A stretch of DNA of 64,000 nt from an uncultured Clostridia bacterium (GCA_946555455.1 CAMNSU010000001.1:16526-80525), one strand, 5' to 3'. Shown: positions 1 to 57,400, numbered from the stretch's first letter. Made by a program: numbers and translations. Notes: a model not told the origin generated them from the sequence alone.

Positions 1-2421
1 CACATAATGGTCGCATACAAAAGCGTCAAACGCCCGTTCATAGTCTGTGTTTTGGTTTTTTCCTGCATAAATGCGCGCGCCTGTGTGTCCGGTATAACAC
101 AGCGGTATCGCTGTCCGTTGCAAAAGCGGCGCCGCGCCACCAAATACATATCGTTTTCCCGCTTCCGATTCCAGCACCAAAATTTCATTCTCCCACCGAA
201 ATGCGATATCCTCCGGCAGCGCCAATCCTTGTATATTCCGCAAACGAACCGTGCCGCCGCAGCGGCAAAACAACTCTATCCGCACCGTTTTTCCGTCTTT
301 CCGCCATGCAGACACCTCCACGCCGCCTTTTGCCAATAGCCGCTCAAATGCGCAATCCCGCCATGTTTTAGGCAATGCCGGAAACACTTCTATCATGCCG
401 TCGCCGCTGCTTTGCAGCAGCAATTCTGTCACCGCGGCAACCGTTTCTCCGGTGCATTCCATCATTGCCGGATAATACATCGGCGGTTTGTTCACCAAGC
501 ATAAATTCAGCCAGCGGTTTGTTTCTTCTGTGCCCAATCCGTTCGCGCGCAAATGCAAATCATATCCTTTTTCGTAGAGCGTACGCAATGCCAGTTCGCC
601 CAGTCCCATACGCGCCGCCGCACATGCCAGCCAGCCGAATCCAAACACGCCCAGTTCCGTATGGTCTATCGCATAGCGCACCGTTGCTTCCGCAATATCC
701 CGCCGATTCTGTGGACTGAATCTGTTCCATTCCTCCGCCGGAAAGATTGGCATGAGCAGCGACGGGTGCCGCAAATGAATACCGGGCGCCGCTTCATGGG
801 AATCTTTTAAAATAACACCGTAATTTTGATATTCCGCCGTTTCATATTCCGGCAAACGCGCCAAAAGTGCGCCGCATATCTCCGCCATACCATCATCTGT
901 CCGTAAGATTTCCGCTGCACGCCGCGTGAAACGGAACAAATATTTTAGGCTGGCAATGGTAATCGCCGCATTATGTCCCAGCGGCCCCTGTTCCGGCGAA
1001 ACATCGGGAAACACCTCATAGGTTCCCGCTTCATTTTGTTCCAGCCGCGCCTGCCAAAACTGCACCTGTTTCACAAAATGCGGATATGCCCGCTGCCGCA
1101 AAAAAGTTTCATCTCCGCTGTATTCATATTGCCACCACAAAAACTGCGCGCACCACGGCCCTATACAGTTATAAAACGGGTGCGGATAGTCTCCCGCATA
1201 GCCAGACAGCCCATGAAATTCCTCCGCAAAACGGATACCTTCCGTTTCGTGCTGCAAGAATCCTTCGCAAAATACTTTTGACAATTCCAAATGATTTGCC
1301 GCATATGTCCCCCAGTAGGTCGCCTGAATATTCACATCCCAATACCACACGCTGCCCCACAGCGTCAAATGGCGGATATCCCACAGTCCGTTCAGTCCGC
1401 TTGCCTGTTCCCGCCGCACACCGCCGCGGCCGCTGCAACATTCCAACACATATAAATGCAAATACCAAAGATTTTCCAAAAAGGCGTCCGGTAAAATGAT
1501 GGAGGACTTTGCAAAAAATGTCTCCCAATGACGTTCATGCGCCGCGCACCGTTCCGGCAATGCCTGTGCATCTCGTCCGCTTTTTTCCTCCGCGGCGCGC
1601 CGGCAATCCTCCTGCTCCAATTCCGTTGCCACACTGACCAGCACGTCAAATTCCTGCGCCGCTTCCGACAGTTCAATTTCAATCTTATCGCCGCATTGTA
1701 CCGCTTTGCCCGCCGCGCCAAGCAGCCGCAGCGTTGTGCAAAACCGAAACGGTTCGTCCTGCGGATAGGCTTCCCAGCCAAACGACTGACACACAGAAAA
1801 CACATTGCCGCTTTGCTGTTTCAAAACTGGTTTTGTGTCTTTACTGTTTCTGCCGCGCGGCACTTCAAACACCAGCTTTGAAACGGTTCCCTGCTGCGCC
1901 TGACGAATATGGCACACCAACGAATCTGTTTCTTGCAAGACCTTTACGGTTGTTTCCACAAAATAAACGCCATGGTGCAGCCGGTAGGAAACCGCCGCAC
2001 GTTCCACCGACAGACGCATGTCCCGCTCCCAACCGTCCGTCTGCGGCGCATAGCAAATCTGAAGGTCACCCACTGCCGGCAGACTTTCTCCCTGCGCCAC
2101 ATGCAGGCGTTTTCCCTCCTGCAGCGGAAACAGCACCTTTTGATATGCCGTCGGCGGCTGTTCCACTGCCAACGCCGCTTTTGCGCGCTGCACAATATTT
2201 TCTTTTGTATCGCCGCCCGCCTTGTGATAGTGCCGCTGCGTTTTTTGCGCCGTGCGGCTATAGTCCGGCAGCCCGCTGTAATACACCTCGTAATGGTTCA
2301 TGGACAGCCGCATATGCCGGTCTTGCAAATATGCCATTGCGCCAAATGTCCCGTTTCCCAGCGGCAGCGCTTCCGTCCAATGTACCGCCGCATTTTCATA
2401 GCGAATTCCATGCCCCTCCAT
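1..2421 (-). CDS. GH95-like glycoside hydrolase (alpha-L-fucosidase family-like), C-terminally truncated by window edge; not in supplied ORF track because no stop codon lies inside the window
   Basis: Minus-strand frame from ATG at 2421 to position 1 verified codon by codon with no stop (807 codons). N-terminal W-EALPLGNG-FGAM and internal WDVNIQATYWG motifs typical of GH95. RBS GAGGAGAGAAAG a few nt upstream. No signal peptide. Confidence 0.6.
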   Translation of the reverse strand, partial: MEGHGIRYENAAVHWTEALPLGNGTFGAMAYLQDRHMRLSMNHYEVYYSGLPDYSRTAQKTQRHYHKAGGDTKENIVQRAKAALAVEQPPTAYQKVLFPLQEGKRLHVAQGESLPAVGDLQICYAPQTDGWERDMRLSVERAAVSYRLHHGVYFVETTVKVLQETDSLVCHIRQAQQGTVSKLVFEVPRGRNSKDTKPVLKQQSGNVFSVCQSFGWEAYPQDEPFRFCTTLRLLGAAGKAVQCGDKIEIELSEAAQEFDVLVSVATELEQEDCRRAAEEKSGRDAQALPERCAAHERHWETFFAKSSIILPDAFLENLWYLHLYVLECCSGRGGVRREQASGLNGLWDIRHLTLWGSVWYWDVNIQATYWGTYAANHLELSKVFCEGFLQHETEGIRFAEEFHGLSGYAGDYPHPFYNCIGPWCAQFLWWQYEYSGDETFLRQRAYPHFVKQVQFWQARLEQNEAGTYEVFPDVSPEQGPLGHNAAITIASLKYLFRFTRRAAEILRTDDGMAEICGALLARLPEYETAEYQNYGVILKDSHEAAPGIHLRHPSLLMPIFPAEEWNRFSPQNRRDIAEATVRYAIDHTELGVFGFGWLACAAARMGLGELALRTLYEKGYDLHLRANGLGTEETNRWLNLCLVNKPPMYYPAMMECTGETVAAVTELLLQSSGDGMIEVFPALPKTWRDCAFERLLAKGGVEVSAWRKDGKTVRIELFCRCGGTVRLRNIQGLALPEDIAFRWENEILVLESEAGKRYVFGGAAPLLQRTAIPLCYTGHTGARIYAGKNQNTDYERAFDAFVCDHYV

Positions 2422-2438
2422 TTGCTTTCTCTCCTCTG

Positions 2439-3149
2439 TCACAAATTTTTGACTGTTCTGTCGTCTTTGGGCGGCGCCGCCAACCCATATTTATACGCTG
2501 CCCGCCCCAAAATTTTCTGCCATGTACCGCCGCAGACCGCCAATAGCAGTACGTTGCACACGCCATGCGCCGCGTCCATGGGAAAACTCGTGATGCAGGA
2601 CGCGATAAATCCCACGCCAAACGCTGCGCCGTCCAGTTCTGCGAGATACCAGAGATTCATCATCCAACCGAACACCAGTCCCCACGCGAAAGCATATACC
2701 ATCTGCGGCATTTTCCGCCGCAGCAGCCATGTATCACGCAGCAGTCCTGTCACATAGCCCATCATGCCCCACAAAAACATTTGCCAAGGCGTCCACGGTC
2801 CCTGCCCCAAAAACAAGTTGGAAGCCACCGCCGCCACCGCGCCAATCATGAAACCGCTTTCGCCGCCCAGCACCAGCGCGGACGCCATAATCACAAATGA
2901 AGTGGGCTGTACGCTGGGAATTGCACCAAACGGCACGCGGCTAACCGCTGCCACCGCCGCCAGCACGCCCACCAGCACCACTTCCTCCGTCTGCACCTGC
3001 CGTCCCTCAAATCGCACCAAAAACGGCAGGGCGCATACGGCTATCATCGCAAAACTGAGCAGCAAAAACATGCCGTCCAGTTTCACTGCCAGCACCATCA
3101 GACCCGCGCACGCCACAAAACATATAATTGTCAGCCATTTCTGTTTCAA
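2439..3149 (-). CDS. ECF transporter S (substrate-capture) component, polytopic membrane protein
   Basis: 236-aa hydrophobic protein directly downstream of EcfA/EcfT, with a 4-nt overlap with the ATPase stop. Locus context (DUF4430, B12 riboswitch) suggests a corrinoid substrate. Confidence 0.65.
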   Translation of the reverse strand: MKQKWLTIICFVACAGLMVLAVKLDGMFLLLSFAMIAVCALPFLVRFEGRQVQTEEVVLVGVLAAVAAVSRVPFGAIPSVQPTSFVIMASALVLGGESGFMIGAVAAVASNLFLGQGPWTPWQMFLWGMMGYVTGLLRDTWLLRRKMPQMVYAFAWGLVFGWMMNLWYLAELDGAAFGVGFIASCITSFPMDAAHGVCNVLLLAVCGGTWQKILGRAAYKYGLAAPPKDDRTVKNL

Positions 3150-4687
3150 TGCTGTTCCTCCCGCAATTTATCATACGCCGTTGTATAAAAATAATTGTCC
3201 GCGAAAAATTCCGCCACCAGCTGCTGCGCCGTGATTCCGCCGCCGAAAAGCATGGCGCAGCGGTCTGCACTGCACTCCGCAAACGCAATGTCATGCGTCA
3301 CCATCAGAATGGTTTTGCCTTCCTCCTTCAGCTGCCGCAGCAGCTCCGCCAATTCCTCCTTGAACGCCGCATCCATGCCTTTTGTCGGCTCGTCCAGCAG
3401 CAAAATTGTGGGACGCTGCAACAATACGCTCAGCAGCGCCGTCTTTTGCTGCTGCCCGCCGCTGAGGTCATAAGGGTGTCTGTCCAGCACTTCCTCCAGT
3501 CCAAACCTCTGCACCAGCCGCTCCGTCTCCGCCGCGTCATATGTACCGATTTCCTTTGCATATTCATAAATTTCGCCGCGCACAGTGTCATGCGTGAAAT
3601 GCAGCATGGGGTTTTGCGCCAAATAGCCCAGCCGCTGACCATCGCCTATTTTCATCTTGCCGCGCTGCGGTTTTTCCAGCCCAAGCAAAAGTTTCAGCAG
3701 CGTCGATTTTCCTGCGCCGTTTGCACCCATCAGCGCCAACAGTTCCCCTTGATACAACGTCAAATCCAAATCTTGCAGCACCGCCGACGCGTGTTTTTCA
3801 TATCGAAAGGAAATACCGCGGCAGTTTAATACCTGCTCTGTTCCCGCGGGCACAGGCCGGTTCCGGCGGCTGCCTGTCACGCCACGCTGCCGCGCTTCTT
3901 TTACCGTAAACGGTACGCCGCCCTGTTTTCCGCTTTCCAAAAACCAAGCAGACACCTGCGGCACAAAAAGCCGCAGTTCCGGTTTTTCATAGAGCGCGCG
4001 GCAAACCGCTTCCGGTGCGCCTTGCGCAAACACCCGTCCGTCCTGCAAAAACACCACCTTGTCCGCCATAGCAAACACATTCTCCGTATGATGTTCCGCA
4101 ATGAGCACCGTGATACCGAATTCCTCGTTCACCTGTTTTAAAAACTGCAAAAAAGACCGCGCCGCCACAGGGTCAAGCTGCGCCGTCGGTTCGTCCAGCA
4201 AAATCATGGCGGGACGCAGCAGTAACACCGACGCAAGCGCCACCATCTGTTTTTCTCCGCCTGACAGCGCCTGAATCGGTTTGTCCATGAGATGTTCCAT
4301 ACCGAAAAAGCTCACCATTTCCGCAATCCGCCGCCGCATTTCACTTACTTGCGTCTGCTGATTCTCCAGCGAAAACGCCAATTCCTGCCACACGCTGCCC
4401 GTCACGCATTGCGCGTCCGGATTTTGGAACACCATACCGATTTCCCGCACCATGTTCTCACCATGGGCGTCAAGCGGTTTGCCGCGGTAGTATATGGTTC
4501 CGCTTTGCTGTCCCGCCGGACGGATTTCTTTTTTGAGCTGCCGCAGCAGCGTGGTTTTTCCGCTGCCTGTTGTTCCGCAAAGCAGCACAAACGCGCCCGC
4601 TTCCACGTCAAAAGAAATGTCCTGTAAAACAGGACTTTGAGAAAGCGCAAATGCAAAAGACAAGTGTTCTATTTGAAGCAGCGCCAT
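3146..4687 (-). CDS. ecfA: Energy-coupling factor transporter ATPase, fused EcfA1-EcfA2 (two ABC ATPase domains)
   Basis: Two Walker A motifs (GTTGSGKTT, GANGAGKST) and ABC signature motifs. Listed ORF starts at 4987, but the likely start is ATG 4687 (or 4696) with a GGAGG RBS. Confidence 0.85.
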   Translation of the reverse strand: MALLQIEHLSFAFALSQSPVLQDISFDVEAGAFVLLCGTTGSGKTTLLRQLKKEIRPAGQQSGTIYYRGKPLDAHGENMVREIGMVFQNPDAQCVTGSVWQELAFSLENQQTQVSEMRRRIAEMVSFFGMEHLMDKPIQALSGGEKQMVALASVLLLRPAMILLDEPTAQLDPVAARSFLQFLKQVNEEFGITVLIAEHHTENVFAMADKVVFLQDGRVFAQGAPEAVCRALYEKPELRLFVPQVSAWFLESGKQGGVPFTVKEARQRGVTGSRRNRPVPAGTEQVLNCRGISFRYEKHASAVLQDLDLTLYQGELLALMGANGAGKSTLLKLLLGLEKPQRGKMKIGDGQRLGYLAQNPMLHFTHDTVRGEIYEYAKEIGTYDAAETERLVQRFGLEEVLDRHPYDLSGGQQQKTALLSVLLQRPTILLLDEPTKGMDAAFKEELAELLRQLKEEGKTILMVTHDIAFAECSADRCAMLFGGGITAQQLVAEFFADNYFYTTAYDKLREEQH

Positions 4688-5535
4688 TTCTGCCATTCCT
4701 CCAATTCCAGCCAGACCGGCGTGATAAGGTAGCATCCGTAGAGCAAACAGGCGGTTGCCGGTTTCACGCCCCACAAAATCAAATCCATGCGCGGATACAC
4801 GGAAAAGACCAGTCCGCCCGACAAACGCAGATACAAAAGCGCCGCGCCGGTCAGAACAAAAAAGCCGCACAGTAGCGCATCTTCCCGCCGAAAACGGTAG
4901 GGAAAATAAAATGTCCGTTTTCTGTGCAGTCCATAGCCCCGCGCCCGCATAGACTGCGCCGCCAGCAGCGCGTCCTCCAGCGACCACGAAACCAGCGCGC
5001 CCAGTTCCCGCGCGCCGCGGCTTACCCTTCGGCGCAGTCCGCCCCGTTCTTCTTTATATTTCAGACGGTGGACGGCGTGCAATTGCCGCGCCCGCTGCCG
5101 CAGCACCGGTATCTCCCGCATACAAAGCAGCAGTGCAAAGGTTGTTTTTTGCGCCGCCCGCGAGAACAAATACATCCATTTATCTGCATCCAAATAAACA
5201 TTTCCTGCTAAAAATGCCAGCAATACACTCAACAGAGACAATGCCAGCAGTCCGCCATAGACCACCGATTCCAGCGTCACAGGATTTTCCCACAAATTGA
5301 ACAGCACTATCCGTCCCCGATGGGAAAACAGCGGATTGATGAGCAAAAACATTGCCGCCAGAATCAACATCATACCCAGATTGCGTTTCATCTGCCGCCC
5401 GCCGTCCAAAAGTCCGTTCACCAGCACCAACAGTATCACGGATTCCACCAAAACGATAGGGTGCAGCCACAGCATAGGAACTGCCGCCGTGCCCGCCAGA
5501 TAAAGCAGGCATGTGATAGGGTGCCGCTGTTTCAA
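4669..5535 (-). CDS. ecfT: ECF transporter transmembrane T component (EcfT/CbiQ family)
   Basis: 288-aa polytopic membrane protein with the C-terminal arginine-rich coupling region typical of EcfT. Sits immediately upstream of ecfA on the same strand. Confidence 0.8.
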   Translation of the reverse strand: MKQRHPITCLLYLAGTAAVPMLWLHPIVLVESVILLVLVNGLLDGGRQMKRNLGMMLILAAMFLLINPLFSHRGRIVLFNLWENPVTLESVVYGGLLALSLLSVLLAFLAGNVYLDADKWMYLFSRAAQKTTFALLLCMREIPVLRQRARQLHAVHRLKYKEERGGLRRRVSRGARELGALVSWSLEDALLAAQSMRARGYGLHRKRTFYFPYRFRREDALLCGFFVLTGAALLYLRLSGGLVFSVYPRMDLILWGVKPATACLLYGCYLITPVWLELEEWQKWRCFK

Positions 5536-5574
5536 CTGTTCCGCCTCCGTTTCTGTCTGTTTTCGGTTCTTCCG

Positions 5575-6255
5575 TTAAATGCCGCCGCCGACATCTTTTC
5601 CCAGTTCCAGCGTATAAATCCAGCGCACTTCATCACCGGCATTCAGTTTCATCTGCCCCGCACTGCGCTGCACAAAATTCCCGTTTACTTCCACCATCCA
5701 GCCGCTGCCCGCGCCGCGGTCAAATTCAAACAAATTGTCAATCCCCTCCACATAGGGGCTTTTGCTGCCGCCCGACGCGACCACCGGAATCCCTGCTTCT
5801 TTTGCCACGCGGCGCAGCACGGTATATGCCGTATCGCCGTCTTCCAGCGCCACAGCCGTCCGGCTGATGACGCTGGTGCCGTCGCTTGGGATTTCCACCG
5901 ACAGATAAACCACTTTTTCCTGCGTCGGCGCTTGTACCGGCGGCTGCTCTGCCGCAGGCTGCACGGGTGGTGCGGCAGGCTGAACGTCTCCCTGCGCCGC
6001 CGGCTGTGCCGCACTATTGCCCGCTTCCGCCGGTTTTTGCGTTGCTGCCGAATCGGTAGACTGCTGCGATTGCTGTGATTCTGCCGCTTCCGGCACAGTT
6101 TCCGTTTGCTGCGGCGGTTCCTCTGTCGGCGCGCCGCCCTGCTCCGTCACGGTCGGCGACGGGTCAGGCTGCGGCTCCGGTTCCTGTTTTCCGCACCCTG
6201 CCGCAAACAGCATACATAGACATAAAACGCCTATTATCCATTGTTTTTTGTTCAA
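5575..6255 (-). CDS. DUF4430-domain lipoprotein (putative surface corrinoid-binding protein)
   Basis: Lipobox LFAAGC after TTG start at 6255 (RBS GAGGTG 6 nt upstream). Listed ORF starts at TTG 6282. Has a Pro/Gln-rich linker, then a C-terminal GWMVEVNG...GDEVRWIYT DUF4430 signature. Confidence 0.65.
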   Translation of the reverse strand: MNKKQWIIGVLCLCMLFAAGCGKQEPEPQPDPSPTVTEQGGAPTEEPPQQTETVPEAAESQQSQQSTDSAATQKPAEAGNSAAQPAAQGDVQPAAPPVQPAAEQPPVQAPTQEKVVYLSVEIPSDGTSVISRTAVALEDGDTAYTVLRRVAKEAGIPVVASGGSKSPYVEGIDNLFEFDRGAGSGWMVEVNGNFVQRSAGQMKLNAGDEVRWIYTLELGKDVGGGI

Positions 6256-6285
6256 CTCAAACACCTCAATCCATGGAACCAAATT

Positions 6286-7809
6286 CTATTTCTGCCCTTG
6301 CAGCCGCATTCCCACAACTGCCACCATTTCCCGCGTCACCGTTCCCTGTGGGTCAAAATATCCGCCGTCTCCCTGCATGATTCCTGCCTGATAAACGGTA
6401 TAAACACCTGTTTTTGCCCATGCCGATATATCCGCATCGTCCGCTAACCGCGCTGATTCTGCTGTCTCAAACAATCCGCTGCGGCTTAAAAACACCGCCA
6501 TTTCCTCTCGCGTCAGCGGGTCGTTCGGACGGAAAGTATCTTGCGCATTCGGCGTAATCAGTCCGCCAGCCGCCGCGTTTTTCAGTTCCTCATAAAACCA
6601 ATCTGATTTTGTCACATCAGCATATAAATCGGTCGGTTCTATCTGTCCCGCTTCCGGCTGGTATGCCAAAATGCGCACCAGCAACGCCAAAAATTCCGCG
6701 CGGGTAATCGGTTTTTGCGGCGCAAAACTGCTGTCCGCATACCCTTTCACAATGCCCTGCCGCACCGCCTGCAAAATAGCGTCCCACGCCCAGTCCGACG
6801 CCGCTTCCAAATCGGTAATCTCCACCTGTGAAGGTGCTCCTCCTGCGGCATATTTTCGCTGCACGTCCCGCAAGTCAAACAATCTCGCCTTGCCGCCTCG
6901 CAGCCGCTCCCACGCACTCAAGGCATAGAGCACCTGCGTCGTCGCCATTTCGTTGGCCTCGGTATCTGCCATGAGATAGCGGAATCCGCCTTCCGGCGCG
7001 GTGCTGTCTGTTAAATAATCCACTATCGTGCGTCCCTGTTTGATAAACCGCGCGTCCTGTGTCGGGTCAATTTCCACTGCGCACAGCGCGGTCAGCACCT
7101 GCGCCGCGCTCATGCTGTTTTCCGCGCCCATTCCGGCGTAGCCCGCTGTGTCCAGCTGCACTTCCGCCAACCAATTTATCGCTTTTTCCACTGCCGCCGC
7201 TGCCGTCTCTTGCTGCCTGTGCGGCGCAAGCGCAGTGACTGCCGCCGCGGTTAAATCCACATCCGCGCCAAAGTTATCGGTAAAGACAAAATATCCTTTT
7301 TCCTTTTGCAGCGCGCATATTTTTTCCACCAGCTTGTCCGCCGTCCACAGTGCATCCGCCGGCAAGGAATAGTCTTGGCTATCCAGCACCAGCAAAGTAT
7401 ATATGTATCCGTTCAGTCCTTGTTTTTCCACCAAATCGCTTTTGCAAAGTTCCCCAATCAAGTCCACGCCCGCGACATTACGTGCGTCATATCCCAATGC
7501 ACCCGCAACCAGCGCCATACGCGCATAATCCGTGGCATAAGTCAAATGTCCTCTCGCACTGATGGTCTCCTGCAAATAGGTTCCCATGCGCTGCAAGTGC
7601 GCTTCCGCCGGTACATCTGCCGCACCGCTGCGCGCAAGTGCAAACAGATTCCAGTCTGCATTGGAGGAATATTCCTCCTCCTGCGCCATCAAATAAGACT
7701 GCGCTTTTTGCACCACGCCCGCTTCCTGCGCCTGTACGCCAAAGGCTCCCCATAATAGTATCATGCATAAAAGAAACGCCGTTTTTCTCCTGCGGCAAAT
7801 TTGTTTCAT
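6286..7809 (-). CDS. Secreted SLH-domain protein with N-terminal alpha/alpha-toroid (prenyltransferase/squalene-cyclase-like) repeat domain
   Basis: Signal peptide after ATG 7809 (MKQICRRRKTAFLLCMILLWGAFGVQAQ). RBS GGAGAGGGGA. C-terminal SLH repeats (SDWAWDAI, ITRAEFLALLV, DWFYEEL, LTREEMAVFL). Confidence 0.65.
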   Translation of the reverse strand: MKQICRRRKTAFLLCMILLWGAFGVQAQEAGVVQKAQSYLMAQEEEYSSNADWNLFALARSGAADVPAEAHLQRMGTYLQETISARGHLTYATDYARMALVAGALGYDARNVAGVDLIGELCKSDLVEKQGLNGYIYTLLVLDSQDYSLPADALWTADKLVEKICALQKEKGYFVFTDNFGADVDLTAAAVTALAPHRQQETAAAAVEKAINWLAEVQLDTAGYAGMGAENSMSAAQVLTALCAVEIDPTQDARFIKQGRTIVDYLTDSTAPEGGFRYLMADTEANEMATTQVLYALSAWERLRGGKARLFDLRDVQRKYAAGGAPSQVEITDLEAASDWAWDAILQAVRQGIVKGYADSSFAPQKPITRAEFLALLVRILAYQPEAGQIEPTDLYADVTKSDWFYEELKNAAAGGLITPNAQDTFRPNDPLTREEMAVFLSRSGLFETAESARLADDADISAWAKTGVYTVYQAGIMQGDGGYFDPQGTVTREMVAVVGMRLQGQK

Positions 7810-7843
7810 TGTTCCGTCCCCTCTCCGACCAAATTCTTTTCCC

Positions 7844-7872
7844 AGTATATCATCATCTTTTTCCAAAGTCAA
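7844..7872 (-). promoter_or_regulatory. sigma-A type promoter for the SLH/DUF4430/ECF operon (TTGACT-17-TATACT on minus strand)
   Basis: Minus-strand read TTGACTttggaaaaagatgatgaTATACT, about 35 nt upstream of ATG 7809. No riboswitch fits between. Confidence 0.55.
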
Positions 7873-7909
7873 CCGCCATTTTCTGATTTATTTTTTTTGC
7901 TTTTTTGTC

Positions 7910-7938
7910 TTGACTCTTTTCTGCGGCTGTGATATACT
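7910..7938 (+). promoter_or_regulatory. sigma-A type promoter (TTGACT-17-TATACT) driving the cobalamin riboswitch transcript
   Basis: TTGACT at 7910-7915, 17-nt spacer, TATACT at 7933-7938. Divergent from the minus-strand promoter. Confidence 0.6.
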
Positions 7939-7949
7939 GGTAATCACTA

Positions 7950-8262
7950 TTGGAAATATGAATTAGCGTGCGGTTTGCTTTTCGTCACAGAAAAGCGTTC
8001 AGGGAATACGGTGAAAATCCGTAACAGTCACTGCTACTGTAAGGAAGGACAACCTTTGCAAAAATCCACTGGCAGCTATACCATGCCGGGAAGGGGCAAA
8101 GGAAGGATGAATTCCGAGTCAGGATATCTGGACCGTTCGTTTGGCACAAATACCTTCTGTGTAAAGGGCATCGTGCGAATGGGCAGGGACGATAAAGCGT
8201 CCGGTCTATCACTCCAGATACGCACTATGCCGGTTCTTCAGACAGAACCGGCTTTTTGTATT
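7950..8262 (+). promoter_or_regulatory. Cobalamin (AdoCbl) riboswitch with terminator-type expression platform
   Basis: Hallmarks AGGGAAtacGGTGaAAATCCg (8001-8021), ACTGTAAGG, B12-box tCCACTGGcag (about 8066), GCCGGGAAGG (about 8085). Intrinsic terminator GCCGGTTCT-tcagac-AGAACCGGC plus T-run at 8229-8260. RBS AAGGAGGA at 8283. Confidence 0.8.
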
Positions 8263-8298
8263 TCTATTTCACTATCCATTTTAAGGAGGATTCATTTT

Positions 8299-10494
8299 AT
8301 GAAAACCAAATCTACTTTACTGCACAGAGCATGTCCATTGCTGGTGCTGTTCACTTTGTTTTGCTCGCTTTTCGCAGGTTCCATTGCCGCGGAAGAACAA
8401 ACAATAAGTGTCCAGATTGCCGTTGCGGGACAGTCGGACAGCGGTTTCGCTTTCCTGTCCCAACCGGCAGCTGTTGAACTGGAGAGCGAAAGCGCCAATG
8501 CGTTTGCCGCTTTGCAGACTTCCGGCATCACCTATGAAGCAACCGGCGGCTATGTGACTTCCATTTTGGGACAAGCTGCTTCCGGCATGGACGGCTGGCA
8601 GTTTACCATCAACGACACGCTTGTTTCCGTTGGCGCACAGCAAGCGGCGCTCTCTGACGGCGATGTTGTTCTATGGATTTATACCAAAGGCAGCAACGAT
8701 TATCTCATGCCGACTTGGCAAGCTATGACCGATACCGCGCCGGCAAACAAAACAGAATCCGAAGCGCTTATTGGCGACGGCACAGGTGTTACACTGGACG
8801 CGGACGGCACATTGCTGACGCTTTCCACTGCGCCCGCATCTATTACATACGCCAGCGCGGGCATTGGCGGCAGCGTGTTGTCTCAGGCATATCTGACCAA
8901 AGATGTACCTCTGGTTGTCAAAGACTATTCCATGACCAATGTAACAGGAACCCCCACCAATTTGCAGCTTACTTTAACAGAGGACGGTATTCTGGCGGCG
9001 CCTGCCGACCCTGAAAAACCGGTTCAGGTTGACGCATTTTTGCTGCAGGCGGACGGTGTGGTTTTCCGTCCCACCTCGATTACCTACACACCGGAGACTG
9101 TTTCGGCGGAAATCAGCGTTCAGTTTGCCATTGCGGGTCAAGATGACAACGGATTTTCTTTCCTTGTTCAGCCTGCTCCGCTCACTTTGACAGCCGAACA
9201 GCCACAGACCGTGCTTGGCACTTTAATTGCTTCCGGCACGGAATATGAAGCGACAGACGGTTTTGTCACCTCTGTAAACGGTATTGCAGCGGAAGGCATG
9301 GACGGCTGGCAGTTTCATGTCAATGACACGCCGGTTGCCACAGCGTCGGACAAAACCGCTTTGCAGCAAGGCGACACGGTTCTTTGGGTCTACAGCAAGG
9401 CGGATAACGGCTATCTCATGCCGACTTGGGAAGCCATGACCGGTACTGCACCGGTAAACAAACAACAGCCGGACGCAATGATTGGCGACGGCAAAACCAT
9501 TCAGCTTTCCGATTCAGAAACCAGACTCACGCTTAACCCTGCGCCTGCTTCTGTAACATTTGCCTGCGCAAGCGCAAGCAGCAGCGTGTTGGCGCAAAGC
9601 TGGCTGACTGCCGGCGAGCCGCTCGTTTTAAAAACCTTTACCCTAGACAAACTTTCCGGTACGGACACCAATTTGCAAGTCACGTTAAAAGACGGTGCAT
9701 TCTATCTTGCACCGGCAGATACCAAAAAAGCAGTAGATGTGAAACACTTCAGTCTGCAAGTGGATGGCGTGAACTATCGCGCTGCGGCGGTTTCCTACCG
9801 ACCGGCGACCAGTACGCCGACACCAACGCCAACTCCCACGCCCGGTCGTCCCAGCGGCGGCGGTCGCCCCAGTGGCAGCGGCGGTGGCGGAGGTGTTGTT
9901 GTGGTTCCGCCGACTTCCACGCCGGACGCTTCTGCCGGCGGACAACCTGCCCCAACTCCCGCGCCTGACGGCACAGAATTTTCACAGTCGGATTGGTTTT
10001 ATGCTCCGACGGTGGCGCTGATGGAGAAAAATATCATCAAAGGCGACGCGGATACCGGCGCAGTCCGTCCGAACGATACTATCAACCGCGAAGAAATCGC
10101 TTCTTTGCTTGTATCTGCTTATCAGTTGCCTGTTTTGACACATGAAAATGATTTTGCAGACAGCACCTCCTCCGAGTGGGCGCTGGATTTGCTCTATACA
10201 CTCAAAGAGCGCGGCGTGATGAACGGAGACGGCAGCGGTATGCAGGGACTGCAGCAGGCAACCCGCCTGGACGTTGCGGTGCTGTTGGCGCGCATGGAAG
10301 GTATCACCTCTGCGGACACCGCTGTGTTAGACCGGTTCAGCGACGCTGTTTCCATTCCGGACTGGGCGCGTGCTTCTGTTGCCGCAATGGTGGAAAAAGG
10401 ATATTTGTCCGGTTATGAAGATGGTACGCTGCGCCTGGAACAATCTATTTTGCGCTGCGAAACTTTTGCTTTGCTCTATCGCATGATTGGATAA
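8299..10494 (+). CDS. S-layer-anchored surface protein with two tandem DUF4430 domains, Pro/Thr-Gly linker and C-terminal SLH repeats (putative B12-capture protein)
   Basis: ATG 8299 (MKTKSTLL, signal peptide) with AAGGAGGA RBS. Listed ORF starts at 7975 inside the riboswitch. Two repeats carrying GMDGWQF-VND...GD-VLW-Y signature. TPTPTPTPTPG/GGGG linker. SLH motifs SDWFYAPTVALMEKNIIKG etc. Confidence 0.7.
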   Translation: MKTKSTLLHRACPLLVLFTLFCSLFAGSIAAEEQTISVQIAVAGQSDSGFAFLSQPAAVELESESANAFAALQTSGITYEATGGYVTSILGQAASGMDGWQFTINDTLVSVGAQQAALSDGDVVLWIYTKGSNDYLMPTWQAMTDTAPANKTESEALIGDGTGVTLDADGTLLTLSTAPASITYASAGIGGSVLSQAYLTKDVPLVVKDYSMTNVTGTPTNLQLTLTEDGILAAPADPEKPVQVDAFLLQADGVVFRPTSITYTPETVSAEISVQFAIAGQDDNGFSFLVQPAPLTLTAEQPQTVLGTLIASGTEYEATDGFVTSVNGIAAEGMDGWQFHVNDTPVATASDKTALQQGDTVLWVYSKADNGYLMPTWEAMTGTAPVNKQQPDAMIGDGKTIQLSDSETRLTLNPAPASVTFACASASSSVLAQSWLTAGEPLVLKTFTLDKLSGTDTNLQVTLKDGAFYLAPADTKKAVDVKHFSLQVDGVNYRAAAVSYRPATSTPTPTPTPTPGRPSGGGRPSGSGGGGGVVVVPPTSTPDASAGGQPAPTPAPDGTEFSQSDWFYAPTVALMEKNIIKGDADTGAVRPNDTINREEIASLLVSAYQLPVLTHENDFADSTSSEWALDLLYTLKERGVMNGDGSGMQGLQQATRLDVAVLLARMEGITSADTAVLDRFSDAVSIPDWARASVAAMVEKGYLSGYEDGTLRLEQSILRCETFALLYRMIG

Positions 10495-10652
10495 GTACAG
10501 CTATAGGTCAGAATCATACCATTCTTTTTTCTAACAGTATATTTTCTGTTTTATTCTGACTAGCGCCATTCGCACGAAAATGAATGAATCTATATGAGAC
10601 AAAGCCACTCCTTTTCAGGCGGTATCCAGATAAGTGATAACAATATGATATA

Positions 10653-10691
10653 AAAAATGCGTTCGGCAGACAATACCGAACGCATTTTTTA
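10653..10691. terminator. Bidirectional intrinsic terminator (GCGTTCGG-cagacaata-CCGAACGC flanked by A- and T-runs)
   Basis: Perfect 8-bp stem flanked by AAAAAAT and ATTTTTT, between convergent genes. Confidence 0.7.
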
Positions 10692-10780
10692 GCTTTCACT
10701 AAACGGTTCATTCTTATATCTTTTTTGCAAACCATTATATGATAATACCTAGGTATACTTATGGTACCATCTATGTTGTA

Positions 10781-11077
10781 TCATTTCTTTTCCTCTACAT
10801 AGCGTTCTACTCTCAGCTTCAATTTATATTTTTCCCGCAGGGCGGCTATCTGTGCCATTTGCTCTGATTTATGATGCAAGTCAAGTGCTTCCTGGCTCTG
10901 CCATCGGTCAATTAACAAAACTGTTTCTGTATCGTCCATTGGAAAATAATATTCATATCTTTCATTTCCCGTTTCCGCGCGTACTGCGCTCACAATCCCA
11001 CTCCGTACCATCTCTTCCGCAAATTTTCTGGCATTTCCGTTTTTTCCTGTATAATATAAATGAATGGTAATGCTCAT
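10781..11077 (-). CDS. Antibiotic-biosynthesis-monooxygenase (ABM) domain protein
   Basis: About 98 aa from MSITIHLYYTGKNG, with the ABM-like motif LIDRWQSQEALDLHHKS. Own RBS GAGGGAGGG upstream of ATG 11077. Confidence 0.65.
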   Translation of the reverse strand: MSITIHLYYTGKNGNARKFAEEMVRSGIVSAVRAETGNERYEYYFPMDDTETVLLIDRWQSQEALDLHHKSEQMAQIAALREKYKLKLRVERYVEEKK

Positions 11078-11338
11078 GGCGTTTCCCTCCCTCGATACAA
11101 TCCAATTTATTTTCACATCTTTTTTGGCAGCGGCAAACCACTTGACAGCAAACCGGTTCACGTTTTCGGAAATAGGCGTTGTACCGTCCGCTTGAGGCAA
11201 ACAAAAGTCGAATCTCATGCGGTTCCTAGGGCAGGAAAGCGACCTAAGCCACTGCTCCGTTTTCTCCACGAAATGCGCGGCGGCAAGCGTTGTTTTGCTG
11301 CTTCCGTTCGCGCCGCATATCACAATCCCCTCCGCCAT
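11078..11338 (-). pseudogene. In-frame N-terminal P-loop NTPase fragment (GANGSSKTTLA) fused upstream of the ABM ORF; probable gene remnant
   Basis: 87 codons with a Walker A motif but too short for an NTPase domain. Runs without a stop into the ABM gene, which has its own RBS and start. Confidence 0.4.
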
Positions 11339-11473
11339 ATTTATCTCCGCCGCTCATCAATTTGTCCTCTCATATAGGTGGAAATTTCGTCTCTTAGCAA
11401 TATTCTCTTTTTGACTAGTATACTGTAATAAATGTACTTTTTGGCGCAAAAGTACCAAACATGTAGAATCCTG

Positions 11474-11632
11474 AACTTTTCATTCATGAAATCTTCGGAC
11501 ATACCCTCTGGGGCACGCGCGTGCCGAAGATTTCATACCCTACAGCGTTCGGAGTGCCGCGTCACGCGGCGCGACACGCGAGTGAAGAACGGTGGCAGGG
11601 GGAATTCCCAAGGGGGGGATGAATCGACGGCG
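11474..11632 (+). repeat. R1 structured repeat, copy a (two more copies in tandem at 61364-61747)
   Basis: Shares CTTTTCAtTCATGAAATCTTCGG...CCGAAGATTTCATAC hairpin, GGAGTGCCG..GGCGCGACaCGCGAG core and G-rich 3' end with copies at 61.4-61.7 kb. Confidence 0.7.
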
Positions 11633-11696
11633 TAAGCCGGAGAGAATCCTTTCTTGGAAATCATTATACCATATCTATTCTTTTTATTGCAACAAA

Positions 11697-11735
11697 AAAT
11701 GAGATGCCGGATTATTCCATGCATCTCATTTCCTT
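11697..11735 (-). terminator. Intrinsic terminator ending the rpsM...rplQ (alpha) operon
   Basis: ATGAGATGC...GCATCTCAT stem followed by a T-run on the minus strand, just downstream of the rplQ stop. Confidence 0.7.
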
Positions 11736-11748
11736 ATCATACAAAATT

Positions 11749-12093
11749 TTAGTCAACCAGTTCCAAAATCGCCATGGGCGCTGCGTCTCCGCGGCGCGGA
11801 CCAGCTTTGATGATTCTGGTATATCCGCCATTTCTTTCTGCGTATTTCGGCGCAATTTCATCGAAGAGTTTCACAACTACTTCACGCTTTGTGATAAAGC
11901 CCAGCGCCTGGCGTTTTGTATGCAAGGTATTTTTCTTTCCAAGAGTAATCATTTTTTCAGCAAGCGAACGAACTTCTTTCGCTTTTGCTTCTGTCGTCAT
12001 GATTTTTCCGTTTTCCAGTAATGATGTTACCAGATTTCTCAGCATCATCATTCTGTGCGCGGTCGGACGACCCAGTTTTCTTGTACCTGGCAT
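11749..12093 (-). CDS. rplQ: 50S ribosomal protein L17
   Basis: Translation matches conserved L17. Confidence 0.95.
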
Positions 12094-27804: not shown

Positions 27805-28127
27805 AACACTTGTCGCCTCCTATATATTGATTACTGCGTCTCTTGTGCGACTCTTTCCGTACACGGTTCCGGGTGTGTCATGAACACCCAAAATAAATAC
27901 CCGGAAGTACGCCTAGCATACAGTCCCGGGTACACATGACGATTCTTTCACAGGCGCGCAGGCAGACCACAGGCGTCCGCCGCTGCTTGTCAAACATTTA
28001 TCGTTCTCTTGTGTACAGTGACTATGCCGCCCGGTTTCTTGAATCGGACATTCTCCATGGAAATTTCCCATTCTCAGATGGAATGCAACCTCCCACTTCA
28101 TCGACTGCCTCGTCACAGCAAGTATTA

Positions 28128-45627: not shown

Positions 45628-45704
45628 TGGTGGATCCTCGGGGACTCGAACCCTGGACCGTCCGGTTATGAGCCGGATGCTCTAACCAACTGAGCTAAGG
45701 ATCC
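45628..45704 (-). tRNA. tRNA-Met (CAT anticodon; Ile2/lysidine type not excluded)
   Basis: Minus-strand read GGATCCTTAGCTCAGTTGGTTAGAGCATCCGGCTCATAACCGGACGGTCCAGGGTTCGAGTCCCCGAGGATCCACCA folds as a cloverleaf with a 7-bp acceptor stem, CAT anticodon and encoded CCA. A terminator-like hairpin GCGACAAAC...GTTTGTCGC lies downstream at 45590-45627. Confidence 0.85.
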
Positions 45705-57150: not shown

Positions 57151-57400
57151 ATTTCATGTATCATTTGTATCAAAAAAACCCCGCTCTGCCGTTGCACATA
57201 ATCACCCTCAAACCTGTATTAACCAGGTGGGTACCACCTCCGGAGATTCATACGTCCCCTGGCACCGGACATAGCGTCCGGCGGGGGCATGTACTACAAA
57301 CCGGAAAGCCGGTTCCCTTGAGAATTCATTGGTTTAAGTAATTCCTGTGTTCGCACATCGCAGGGATTTTCCCATATCCAAAGCGCTCCGCGCTTCCCTT

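What the first reader, a model, noticed from the sequence alone, without database searches (positions are those of the whole stretch)
5575..10494. B12 capture locus resembling a split intrinsic-factor/transcobalamin: alpha-toroid SLH protein plus DUF4430 proteins, with a riboswitch only on the divergent gene
The minus operon encodes an SLH-anchored protein whose N-terminus is an alpha/alpha-toroid repeat domain. It also encodes a lipoprotein with a DUF4430 domain, and the ECF T-A-S transporter. The divergent gene, under an AdoCbl riboswitch, encodes an S-layer protein with two DUF4430 copies. Mammalian intrinsic factor and transcobalamin bind B12 between an alpha6/alpha6 domain and a beta-domain. 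If DUF4430 is homologous to the beta-domain of those proteins, this locus would encode both halves as separate secreted proteins. The ECF operon uses a plain sigma-A promoter with no room for a riboswitch, so only the high-capacity capture protein is B12-repressed.
Basis: partly seen in the sequence, partly recalled or inferred. Interest (0 to 1): 0.6.

Follow-up and report, generated by a model that had tools for sequence, protein, structure and literature searches.

The report
Split transcobalamin-like B12 scavenging locus
This gut Clostridia locus most likely scavenges vitamin B12, using two separate surface proteins that match the two halves of human transcobalamin plus an ECF transporter, but this type of system was already predicted in 2007 and 2019, so it is a new example with an unusual regulatory layout rather than a discovery.

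Summary
On the minus strand there is a secreted alpha/alpha-toroid protein with 3 SLH repeats, then a DUF4430 lipoprotein, EcfT, a fused EcfA-A', and an S component related to CbrT. On the plus strand, transcribed divergently, there is a 101-bit cobalamin riboswitch, a terminator, and a 731-aa protein with two DUF4430 domains and an SLH anchor.

The split-transcobalamin reading holds up. Toroid and DUF4430 are fused in most relatives. A 430-aa single-chain relative, P0259, is collinear with the two window proteins. Its model matches only transcobalamin, intrinsic factor and haptocorrin as top solved structures. The toroid on its own is a generic a6/a6 barrel. By sequence it is closer to squalene-hopene cyclase repeats, but the DxDD catalytic motif is broken (DVDL).

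The order DUF4430 then EcfT is conserved in 50 of 52 related loci. In 16 of 33 distinct groups a B12 riboswitch precedes the whole operon in the same direction. Only this lineage (4 species) has the riboswitch and the first gene facing the other way.

The idea is not new. Burroughs et al. 2007 predicted it, and Verplaetse et al. 2019 described the split form with an ECF transporter in L. sakei. No binding has been shown here.

Verdict: new member of a known kind, with modest interest.

The parts
7956..8149 (+). Cobalamin riboswitch aptamer (RF00174)
   Evidence: cmscan gives 101.1 bits against a gathering score of 31.5, E=3.9e-24, matching model positions 1-189 of 189. It is conserved in L001, L002 and L003.
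7910..7938 (+). Predicted sigma-A promoter of the riboswitch gene (TTGACT-17-TATACT, TG-extended)
   Evidence: Consensus scan matches 10 of 12 positions. Both the -35 and -10 boxes are invariant in 4 species.
8229..8262 (+). Intrinsic terminator serving as the riboswitch expression platform (transcriptional OFF switch)
   Evidence: A 9-bp stem with 6 GC pairs followed by TTTTTGTATT. It lies between the aptamer and the RBS/ATG at 8284-8301.
8299..10494 (+). Riboswitch-controlled 731-aa surface protein. It contains a signal peptide, then two copies of a module (DUF4430 plus a ~130-aa unassigned domain), then a Pro/Thr/Gly linker and a C-terminal SLH region.
   Evidence: Pfam DUF4430 E=8.5e-23 in 2 stretches; SLH E=9e-15. 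The two modules are 52% identical to each other. DUF4430 domains are at residues 31-143 and 267-380, which is nt 8383-8718 and 9100-9432. The SLH region, residues 552-729, aligns to the SLH end of the L012 protein.
7844..7872 (-). Predicted sigma-A promoter of the toroid/DUF4430/ECF operon, with a leader of only ~28-35 nt
   Evidence: TTGACT-17-TATACT with an extended TG, matching 10 of 12. The boxes, the leader and the RBS are invariant in the window, L001, L002 and L003. No RNA family hit on this strand.
6286..7809 (-). Secreted alpha/alpha-toroid protein with 3 SLH repeats (507 aa). The toroid is roughly residues 28-320 (nt 6850-7728) and the SLH region is nt 6289-6825.
   Evidence: AF2 pLDDT 91.6 with ~12 helices. 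Foldseek matches a6/a6 barrels, including transcobalamin. SLH E=6.5e-34. The SLH part matches B. anthracis Sap, E=1e-9. The motif is DVDLT, not DxDD.
5575..6282 (-). DUF4430 (transcobalamin beta-like SLBB) lipoprotein. The likely start is TTG at 6255, giving 226 aa. It has a low-complexity linker. The DUF4430 domain is at nt 5578-5910.
   Evidence: Pfam PF14478 E=4.7e-16. The 97%-identical NCBI protein P0007 is 226 aa and named 'DUF4430 domain-containing protein'. It is 38% identical to the C-terminal domain of P0259. The lipobox was read from the sequence.
4669..5535 (-). EcfT (CbiQ-family) transmembrane component
   Evidence: Pfam CbiQ E=1.1e-5, 25.6 bits against a 25 cut-off. In relatives the gene is always directly preceded by DUF4430.
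3146..4690 (-). Fused EcfA-A' ATPase with two ABC domains
   Evidence: Pfam ABC_tran in 2 stretches, E=8.3e-61. NCBIfam ECF_ATPase_1 scores 330 bits against a 315 cut-off.
2439..3149 (-). ECF S component related to the cobalamin-specific CbrT
   Evidence: Its only PDB relative is the 182-aa 'Membrane protein' chain of 6fnp, E=1e-9 over 150 residues. My own knowledge is that 6fnp is ECF-CbrT, the structure reported in PMC5997447. Pfam ECF-ribofla_trS E=7.8e-11.

Best explanation
This is a corrinoid (vitamin B12) scavenging system of a monoderm gut Clostridia bacterium. It belongs to the widespread 'toroid + transcobalamin-like SLBB (DUF4430) + dedicated ECF transporter' operon type.

Proposed mechanism (inferred). 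The membrane-tethered DUF4430 lipoprotein binds a corrinoid. The S-layer-tethered alpha/alpha toroid then closes over it. This would resemble the separately expressed alpha and beta domains of human transcobalamin, which assemble only when cobalamin is present. The ligand is handed to a CbrT-like S component and imported by EcfT and EcfA-A'. A second wall-anchored protein with two DUF4430 domains acts as an outer antenna.

Regulation (shown at sequence level). Only the antenna gene is behind a cobalamin riboswitch with a terminator. The five-gene uptake operon starts from its own conserved sigma-A-type promoter with a leader too short for a riboswitch. When B12 is plentiful the cell would therefore stop making the antenna but keep the basal uptake machinery.

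Origin of the layout (inferred). The common arrangement is riboswitch, then surface DUF4430 protein, then toroid, DUF4430, T, AA' and S, all in one direction. A single inversion of the riboswitch plus the first gene would give the layout seen here.
For: Anatomy.

S component is related to CbrT.

Toroid and DUF4430 are functionally linked.
- 138 of the 163 proteins then on file, the 150 best toroid relatives among them, carry DUF4430 in the same chain.
- L003, whose toroid is 66% identical to the window's, encodes a toroid-DUF4430-toroid-SLH fusion.
- P0259 (430 aa, toroid+DUF4430) is collinear with the two window proteins.
- The AF2 model of P0259 (pLDDT 88.7) has transcobalamin, intrinsic factor and haptocorrin as its 15 best PDB matches, E=1.8e-9 to 1.6e-7, over 435-472 columns. 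The next fold scores 4.9e-5.
- The DUF4430 part of the profile hits the isolated TC beta-domain 5no0 (E=0.014), TC residues 307-372, and haptocorrin residues 334-431.

Operon conservation: a DUF4430 gene ends less than 400 nt before EcfT in 50 of 52 related loci, and a toroid gene precedes it in 39.

B12 link: a cobalamin riboswitch lies upstream and co-directional in 16 of 33 distinct groups. L050, L063 and L089 have exactly riboswitch, toroid, DUF4430, T, A, S.

The divergent promoters and riboswitch are conserved in 4 species.

Literature. Separately expressed TC-alpha and TC-beta co-elute only with cobalamin, and TC-beta alone binds Cbl and Cbi (PMC5599065). Burroughs et al. predicted B12 scavenging (PMC1796856). 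ECF-CbrT transports Cbl and Cbi (PMC5997447).
Against: No binding, transport or expression data exist for any member with B12.

The toroid alone is no closer to TC than to prenyltransferases, with TMq 0.50-0.59 for all of them. It has no sequence-level match to the TC alpha-domain.

In the P0259 model the two domains do not sit as they do in holo-TC (rmsd about 24 A), so the sandwich geometry is not shown.

About half of the related operon groups have no B12 riboswitch. Seven long loci were confirmed riboswitch-free by Rfam.

The only experimentally studied homologous operon, L. sakei lsa1836-1840, was linked to heme uptake (bioRxiv 10.1101/864751).

Promoters and transcription starts are predictions only.
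Confidence: 0.65

Rival explanations
1. The system imports heme or another tetrapyrrole rather than corrinoids, as proposed for the homologous L. sakei lsa1836-1840 operon.
For: Verplaetse et al. (bioRxiv 10.1101/864751) describe the same alpha-like, beta-like, T, AA', S gene set in an operon they link to heme uptake in L. sakei. They also docked heme between the two modelled proteins. About half of the related operon groups lack a B12 riboswitch.
Against: Here the paralogous DUF4430 protein is under a 101-bit cobalamin riboswitch. In 16 of 33 related groups the whole operon is under one. The only solved relative of the S component is the CbrT chain of 6fnp. The fused relative matches only the B12 carriers TC, IF and HC.
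Confidence: 0.1
2. DUF4430 proteins bind and deliver B12 on their own. The toroid does not form a TC-like sandwich. Instead it has a different accessory role, such as scaffold, wall spacer, binder of another ligand or of corrinoid variants, or stripping B12 from host or foreign carriers.
For: Several riboswitch-controlled relatives have DUF4430 + ECF with no detectable toroid, for example L023, L069 and L082. The antenna protein has no toroid. TC-beta alone binds Cbl (PMC5599065). The toroid is not specifically TC-like. The AF2 model of the fusion does not place the domains as in holo-TC.
Against: Toroid and DUF4430 are fused in the great majority of relatives, often adjacent with short linkers in the TC order. 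They are neighbouring genes in 39 of 52 loci. A near-invariant Asp and Thr (415 and 410 of 420) point to a conserved functional site.
Confidence: 0.18
3. The toroid protein is an enzyme of the terpene-cyclase or prenyltransferase type, or a glycan-active a6/a6 enzyme. Its placement next to DUF4430 and ECF would then be unrelated to B12.
For: The best sequence matches in the PDB are squalene-hopene cyclase (E=1.3e-15) and drimenyl-diphosphate synthase. Foldseek's top hits are prenyltransferase beta subunits and class II cyclases. The motif DVDLTA aligns with the SHC catalytic DVDDTA.
Against: The DxDD motif is not intact. The position equivalent to SHC D377 is I, M, L or V in all but a few of 420 domains and is never Asp. 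The protein is a single ~290-aa barrel, not the two-domain cyclase. It is secreted and SLH-anchored. Fusion and operon linkage to DUF4430 and ECF is near-universal.
Confidence: 0.04
4. The operon is a cobalt/nickel (CbiMNQO-type) transporter, as the Pfam and NCBIfam names CbiQ and CbiO suggest.
For: CbiQ and cbiO family hits.
Against: There are no CbiM or CbiN genes. The S component is of the ECF-ribofla_trS/CbrT type. The extracellular partners are TC-like corrinoid-binding folds.
Confidence: 0.03

Closest known systems
Bacterial transcobalamin-like SLBB proteins with alpha/alpha toroid in CbiO/CbiQ operons (Burroughs, Balaji, Iyer & Aravind 2007, PMC1796856)
   Same: The shared features are secreted or surface SLBB (DUF4430) proteins, association with an alpha/alpha toroid, a second paralogous SLBB protein in the neighbourhood, and linkage to CbiO-like ATPase and CbiQ-like membrane genes. 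B12 scavenging was predicted for them. All of these features are met here.
   Different: That paper emphasises fused toroid-SLBB architectures. Here the two are separate genes, anchored differently (SLH versus lipid). The paper does not describe the riboswitch layout.
L. sakei lsa1836-1840 ECF-like system (Verplaetse et al., bioRxiv 10.1101/864751)
   Same: The gene set is the same: S component, AA', T, a secreted beta-like protein and a secreted alpha-like protein. It was explicitly interpreted as the beta and alpha 'subunits' of a transcobalamin-like binder feeding an ECF transporter.
   Different: It was assigned to heme uptake. The text mentions no riboswitch. It has no SLH anchoring and no separate 2xDUF4430 antenna gene.
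Mammalian transcobalamin / intrinsic factor / haptocorrin
   Same: Both have a two-part architecture of an a6/a6 barrel plus a beta-grasp domain with a hairpin insert. The fused relative P0259 has these three proteins as its only top structural matches. Split TC and IF domains reassemble on cobalamin (PMC5599065).
   Different: In mammals it is a single chain; here there are two genes. The toroid has no sequence-level similarity to the TC alpha-domain. No receptor-recognition function is expected. The ligand is delivered to an ECF transporter.
ECF-CbrT cobalamin transporter of Lactobacillus delbrueckii (PMC5997447, PDB 6fnp)
   Same: The S component is homologous to CbrT (E=1e-9). Both have an EcfT plus two ATPase domains.
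   Different: Here the ECF module is dedicated and encoded in the operon with a fused A-A', and it comes with extracellular partner proteins. [quoted passage not shown]
Bacteroides BtuG/BtuH surface B12-capture relay (PMC8941943, PMC13616437)
   Same: It works alike: riboswitch-linked surface-exposed corrinoid binders capture B12 ahead of the membrane transporter in a competitive gut setting.
   Different: The folds are unrelated (to my own knowledge BtuG is a beta-propeller), the bacterium is diderm, and the transporter is the TonB-dependent BtuB. The two are not homologous.

Membership tests
Cobalamin riboswitch (Rfam RF00174) | Covariance-model score above the curated gathering threshold over the full aptamer | tested here: met
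   101.1 bits against 31.5, model positions 1-189 of 189, E=3.9e-24.
Cobalamin riboswitch (Rfam RF00174) | Expression platform located between the aptamer and the regulated gene | tested here: met
   An intrinsic-terminator-like hairpin at 8229-8252 plus a T-run sits 47 nt before the ATG. This is a consensus prediction only.
Transcobalamin-like SLBB clade / DUF4430 (PF14478) | Match to the DUF4430 profile above the curated cut-off | tested here: met
   Lipoprotein: 59.4 bits against 23.8. Antenna protein: 81 bits in 2 copies.
Transcobalamin-like SLBB clade / DUF4430 (PF14478) | Beta-grasp fold with a beta-hairpin inserted after the helix, the hallmark given in PMC1796856 | tested here: met
   In the AF2 model of relative P0259 the helix at 348-358 is followed by strands 363-368 and 373-379. 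The window lipoprotein aligns through this segment at 38% identity. The window protein itself was not modelled.
Transcobalamin-like SLBB clade / DUF4430 (PF14478) | Homology to the beta-domain of transcobalamin, IF and haptocorrin | tested here: met
   Profile A4 hits TC-beta 5no0 (E=0.014), TC residues 307-372 (E=0.097) and HC residues 334-431 (E=0.35), all in the beta-domain. Foldseek of P0259 gives TC/IF/HC as ranks 1-15. The literature agrees: PMC1796856, PMC4350170.
Eukaryotic cobalamin-binding proteins (TC/IF/HC) | N-terminal a6/a6 toroid homologous to the TC alpha-domain | tested here: inconclusive
   The fold is the same: an a6/a6 barrel with TC hits at E~2e-3 and TMq 0.50-0.58. But these rank 40-43, behind prenyltransferases and cyclases. 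There is no sequence-level match to the TC alpha-domain.
Eukaryotic cobalamin-binding proteins (TC/IF/HC) | Alpha and beta domains joined in one polypeptide | tested here: not met
   They are separate genes in the window (7809..6286 and 6282..5575). They are fused in relatives P0259 and L003.
Eukaryotic cobalamin-binding proteins (TC/IF/HC) | Cobalamin bound at the alpha/beta interface | not testable with these tools
   No ligand-aware or multimer prediction was available. In the apo AF2 model of P0259 the domains are not in the holo-TC arrangement (rmsd ~24 A).
ECF transporter, CbrT (cobalamin) type | S component homologous to CbrT | tested here: met
   phmmer gives E=1e-9 to 6fnp chain A over query residues 52-201, and this is the only PDB hit.
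ECF transporter, CbrT (cobalamin) type | EcfT plus two EcfA ATPase domains | tested here: met
   CbiQ scores 25.6 bits against 25. ABC_tran is found twice. ECF_ATPase_1 scores 330 bits against 315.
ECF transporter, CbrT (cobalamin) type | ATP-dependent cobalamin or cobinamide uptake | not testable with these tools
   This needs a transport assay.
Class II terpene cyclase (squalene-hopene cyclase type) | Intact DxDD general-acid motif | tested here: not met
   The window has D183-V-D185-L186. The position equivalent to SHC D377 is I, M, L or V in all but a few of 420 family domains and is never Asp.
Class II terpene cyclase (squalene-hopene cyclase type) | Two a/a-barrel domains enclosing the active-site cavity | tested here: not met
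   The model shows one barrel of ~290 residues followed by SLH repeats.
SLH-anchored cell-wall proteins | Three tandem SLH repeats | tested here: met
   Toroid protein: 3 stretches, E=6.5e-34, and it matches the B. anthracis Sap SLH domain at E=1e-9. Antenna protein: SLH E=9e-15, with one repeat above the per-stretch threshold; residues 552-729 align to a triple-SLH terminus.

The most novel reading that the evidence does not exclude
The ECF transporter, a class usually described as working without extracytoplasmic binding proteins, is here served by a three-tier extracellular relay. First, a riboswitch-repressed S-layer antenna with two beta-domains. Second, a ligand-induced 'split transcobalamin' formed between a wall-anchored alpha-toroid and a membrane-anchored beta-lipoprotein, which physically bridges wall and membrane. 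Third, the CbrT-like S component. An ancient inversion has uncoupled regulation of the antenna from that of the uptake core.
Probability: 0.35. Interest if true: 0.55.

Novelty: new member of a known kind. Interest (0 to 1): 0.3.

Why it matters
The family is very large. The toroid has 5261 representative clusters at E<=1e-3. The DUF4430 search found at least 573 metagenome hits, many from human gut. As far as I could find in the literature searched here, it has not been biochemically characterised for B12.

If the mechanism is right, these proteins are the Gram-positive counterpart of the Bacteroides BtuG/BtuH capture systems. They would also be bacterial relatives of mammalian B12 carriers, and they would show that an ECF transporter can use extracellular binding proteins.

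This particular locus adds a compact, naturally split version with separately regulated modules. That makes it convenient for testing cobalamin-induced alpha/beta assembly. It does not change current concepts.

Tried and rejected
- DUF4430 profile from 8 sequences (A2) against the PDB gave only 3u7z (a protein annotated as 'putative metal binding protein'; I recall it as a DUF4430 member) at E=0.097. The profile was too shallow to reach TC.
- Single-sequence PDB search with the lipoprotein gave nothing relevant.
- The word-indexed homologue searches with the toroid and with DUF4430 returned only 6 and 8 hits. The exhaustive representatives search was needed.
The DUF4430 alignment A6 was used instead.
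- Rodionov et al. 2009 (PMC2612444) is not held.
- Terpene-cyclase reading: rejected on the broken DxDD motif and the single-barrel, secreted architecture.
- Cobalt transporter reading: rejected because there is no CbiM/N and the S component is CbrT-like.
- A riboswitch on the minus-operon leader: searched for with permissive Rfam settings and not found.
- Orthology of the antenna with the large upstream DUF4430/SLH proteins of L012: only the SLH and DUF4430 segments align. The 'inversion' scenario therefore rests on gene order, not on orthology.


Full report
OBSERVATION

The window carries two back-to-back transcription units.

On the minus strand, a TG-extended TTGACT-17-TATACT promoter (7872-7844) lies about 35 nt before an ATG at 7809. 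Five tightly packed genes follow:
- a 507-aa secreted protein with a ~290-residue N-terminal domain and three SLH repeats (Pfam SLH E=6.5e-34; SQHop_cyclase_C and Prenyltrans hits below their cut-offs);
- a DUF4430 lipoprotein (PF14478, E=4.7e-16);
- EcfT (CbiQ family);
- a fused double ATPase (NCBIfam ECF_ATPase_1, 330 bits);
- an S component whose only relative among solved structures is the CbrT chain of 6fnp (E=1e-9).

A GH95-like gene follows and runs off the window.

On the plus strand, a similar promoter (7910-7938) is followed by a full-length cobalamin riboswitch (RF00174, 101.1 bits, 7956-8149). Next come an intrinsic terminator (8229-8252), an RBS and an ATG at 8299. The 731-aa product has a signal peptide and a tandem duplication of a ~240-residue module made of DUF4430 plus an unassigned domain. 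The two copies are 52% identical. A Pro/Thr/Gly linker and an SLH region follow.

A permissive Rfam scan of 1-12000 finds no other riboswitch on either strand. Three things need correcting: the ECF genes lie outside the stated coordinates, the listed 839-aa ORF reads through the riboswitch, and the TTG at 7872 is a -35 box rather than a start codon.

WHAT THE TOROID IS

With a 28-sequence alignment, AlphaFold2 gives a confident a6/a6 barrel (pLDDT 91.6, pTM 0.88). Foldseek against the PDB returns prenyltransferase beta subunits and class II terpene cyclases first (E~1e-4). Transcobalamin appears only at ranks 40-43 (E~2e-3), and all of these have similar TM-scores of 0.50-0.59. A sequence profile hits squalene-hopene cyclase (1.3e-15), drimenyl-diphosphate synthase, alpha-2-macroglobulin TED and GGTase beta, but not transcobalamin. 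On its own, then, the domain is a generic member of the six-hairpin toroid fold.

The refutation test that the finding itself named is an intact terpene-cyclase Asp motif. That motif is not present. The window motif D183-V-D185-L186-T187 aligns with the SHC motif D374-V-D376-D377-T. Across 420 domains of the family, the D377-equivalent position is I, M, L or V in all but a few and is never Asp. D185 (415 of 420) and T187 (410 of 420) are nearly invariant. The protein is also a single barrel, secreted and wall-anchored.

THE LINK BETWEEN TOROID AND DUF4430

The exhaustive search found 5261 representative clusters at E<=1e-3. Most of the best 150 are giant surface proteins with 2-3 toroids. My HMM built from the window's DUF4430 domains finds DUF4430 in the same chain in 138 of the 163 proteins then on file, typically directly adjacent to a toroid. 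Among 117 further homologues, 100 are stand-alone toroids of about 323 aa, so the split state is common. Another 14 have toroid followed by DUF4430.

The closest non-identical lineage, L003, has a toroid 66% identical to the window's. It encodes toroid-DUF4430-toroid-SLH as one protein.

P0259 is a 430-aa lipoprotein with toroid (23-305) plus DUF4430 (324-428), about the size of transcobalamin. It is collinear with the two window proteins: 33% identity over 312 residues (E=1e-30) and 38% identity (E=2e-14). Its AF2 model (pLDDT 88.7) has rat, human and bovine transcobalamin, intrinsic factor and haptocorrin as its 15 best PDB matches. These score E=1.8e-9 to 1.6e-7 over 435-472 aligned columns. 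The next fold scores 4.9e-5. The rmsd of about 24 A shows that both domains align in order but are not placed as in the holo crystal structures.

The model shows the beta-hairpin after the helix, which defines the transcobalamin-like SLBB clade (PMC1796856). A profile of toroid-DUF4430 fusions weakly hits the beta-domain, and only the beta-domain, of TC (5no0, E=0.014; 4zrp residues 307-372) and of haptocorrin.

Together with the literature (PMC1796856; PMC4350170), this establishes DUF4430 as the TC-type beta-domain. It also establishes the family as two-part TC-like binders, of which the window encodes a split version.

THE LINK TO B12 AND TO THE ECF TRANSPORTER

I collected contexts by exact-protein look-ups and by a metagenome scan with a DUF4430 alignment (at least 573 relatives, 80 loci kept). 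I annotated them by six-frame HMM searches. I searched them for riboswitches with Rfam and with my own covariance model.
- Of 60 loci outside the window's lineage, 52 contain EcfT.
- In 50 of those 52, a DUF4430 gene ends less than 400 nt upstream of EcfT.
- In 39, a toroid gene precedes that DUF4430 gene.
- 45 have T, A and S all present.

After merging near-identical loci there are 33 groups. In 16 of them a cobalamin riboswitch lies upstream, and it is always co-directional with the operon. L050, L063 and L089 have exactly riboswitch, toroid, DUF4430, EcfT, EcfA, EcfS. L012 and L014 have riboswitch, then a large DUF4430/SLH surface protein, then toroid-SLH, DUF4430 and ECF. Seven long loci without a hit were confirmed riboswitch-free by Rfam. 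Riboswitch-less versions are therefore also common.

Only the window and its three relatives L001-L003 have the riboswitch and a DUF4430 surface-protein gene facing away from the operon. In these four species both promoters, the short minus-strand leader and its RBS are invariant, even though the spacer between them has diverged. A single inversion of 'promoter-riboswitch-first gene' in the common layout would give exactly this back-to-back arrangement. This is an inference from gene order. The antenna is not demonstrably orthologous to the large upstream proteins of L012.

MECHANISM

Shown at sequence or model level: the parts, their anchoring signals, their homology, the riboswitch with its terminator, and the short-leader promoter.

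Inferred: the DUF4430 lipoprotein binds a corrinoid, the wall-tethered toroid closes over it, and the ligand passes to the CbrT-like S component. The precedent is that individually expressed TC-alpha and TC-beta co-elute only when cobalamin is added, and that TC-beta alone binds Cbl and Cbi (PMC5599065). ECF-CbrT transports Cbl and Cbi (PMC5997447).

The 2xDUF4430 SLH protein would be an outer antenna made only when intracellular B12 is low. The uptake core would be expressed independently of B12. 'High capacity' is not supported by any data.

COMPARISON WITH WHAT IS KNOWN

Burroughs et al. (2007) already described bacterial TC-like SLBB proteins. They noted fusion to alpha/alpha toroids, a second paralogous SLBB protein in the operon, linkage to CbiO/CbiQ genes and a predicted B12-scavenging role. 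[quoted passage not shown]

Verplaetse et al. (2019) described the L. sakei operon lsa1836-1840 with the same genes: S, AA', T, beta-like and alpha-like. They interpreted the last two as subunits of a transcobalamin-like binder feeding an ECF transporter, although they attributed heme uptake to it.

What this locus adds is SLH versus lipid anchoring of the two halves, and a lineage-specific regulatory split. I found no paper reporting B12 binding by any bacterial DUF4430 or toroid protein. The library is incomplete, so this is not proof that none exists.

RIVALS

- Heme or another tetrapyrrole as substrate (0.10) is disfavoured by the riboswitch data and the CbrT-like S component.
- An independent, non-sandwich role for the toroid (0.18) remains open. 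Some riboswitch-controlled operons lack a toroid, and the apo model does not show the holo arrangement.
- An enzymatic role for the toroid (0.04) and a cobalt transporter (0.03) are unlikely.

VERDICT

This is a new member of a known, though biochemically uncharacterised, kind, with a derived regulatory layout. Interest is 0.3.

Noticed in passing
window 1-2442 (-): A GH95-like gene (Glyco_hydro_95_cat family in relatives) starts overlapping the stop of the S-component gene and runs off the left end of the window. A GH95 gene also follows the S gene in L001 and L003. It may be co-transcribed with the ECF operon.
   Followed up: partly
window 7254-7268 (-), toroid residues 181-187; family-wide: The motif D-x-D-[ILMV]-T-[AG]-M is nearly invariant in 420 toroid domains (Asp185 in 415 of 420, Thr187 in 410 of 420). 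It aligns with the catalytic DVDDTA of squalene-hopene cyclase, but the last Asp is always replaced. Its role is unknown. It could be a candidate ligand-contact or helix-capping site.
   Followed up: partly
P0015-P0163 (representatives search): Many relatives are giant surface proteins of 1000-3500 aa with 2-3 toroids and 1-10 DUF4430 copies. P0030, for example, has ten DUF4430 domains. This suggests multivalent capture arrays.
   Followed up: no
P0279, P0265 and about 12 similar proteins: One chain holds a toroid, then a stretch that looks like two transmembrane helices, then DUF4430. This would place both domains outside the membrane on a membrane-embedded hairpin.
   Followed up: no
L023, L033, L069, L082: In L023, L069 and L082 the riboswitch is followed within about 0.5-1.3 kb by DUF4430, and in L023 and L069 DUF4430 runs straight into the ECF genes (L082 ends before any ECF gene). 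No toroid was detectable in any of the four. L033 has two cobalamin riboswitches about 6 kb apart on the same strand, the nearer one about 3.5 kb upstream of DUF4430.
   Followed up: no
window 8719-9099 and 9433-9800 (+): The ~130-residue segment after each DUF4430 in the antenna protein has no Pfam or NCBIfam match. It was not modelled.
   Followed up: no
window 10781-11338 (-): A 185-aa ORF with a P-loop-like GANGSSKT lies between the antenna gene and rplQ. It was not examined.
   Followed up: no
window 57174-57369 (-), 28024-28109 (-), 45631-45704 (-): Rfam also finds 6S RNA (79.5 bits), an S10-Clostridia ribosomal leader (36.2 bits, just above its cut-off) and a tRNA. The locus sits next to the rpoA/rplQ/rpsD/rpsK ribosomal cluster, and L004 shows a comparable neighbourhood.
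   Followed up: no
L004, L010/L011: In some human-gut relatives the toroid-DUF4430-ECF genes are preceded, in the same direction, by a transglutaminase-core protein and a 1500-1650-aa Cadherin-like surface protein. No riboswitch was found within the sequence fetched.
   Followed up: no
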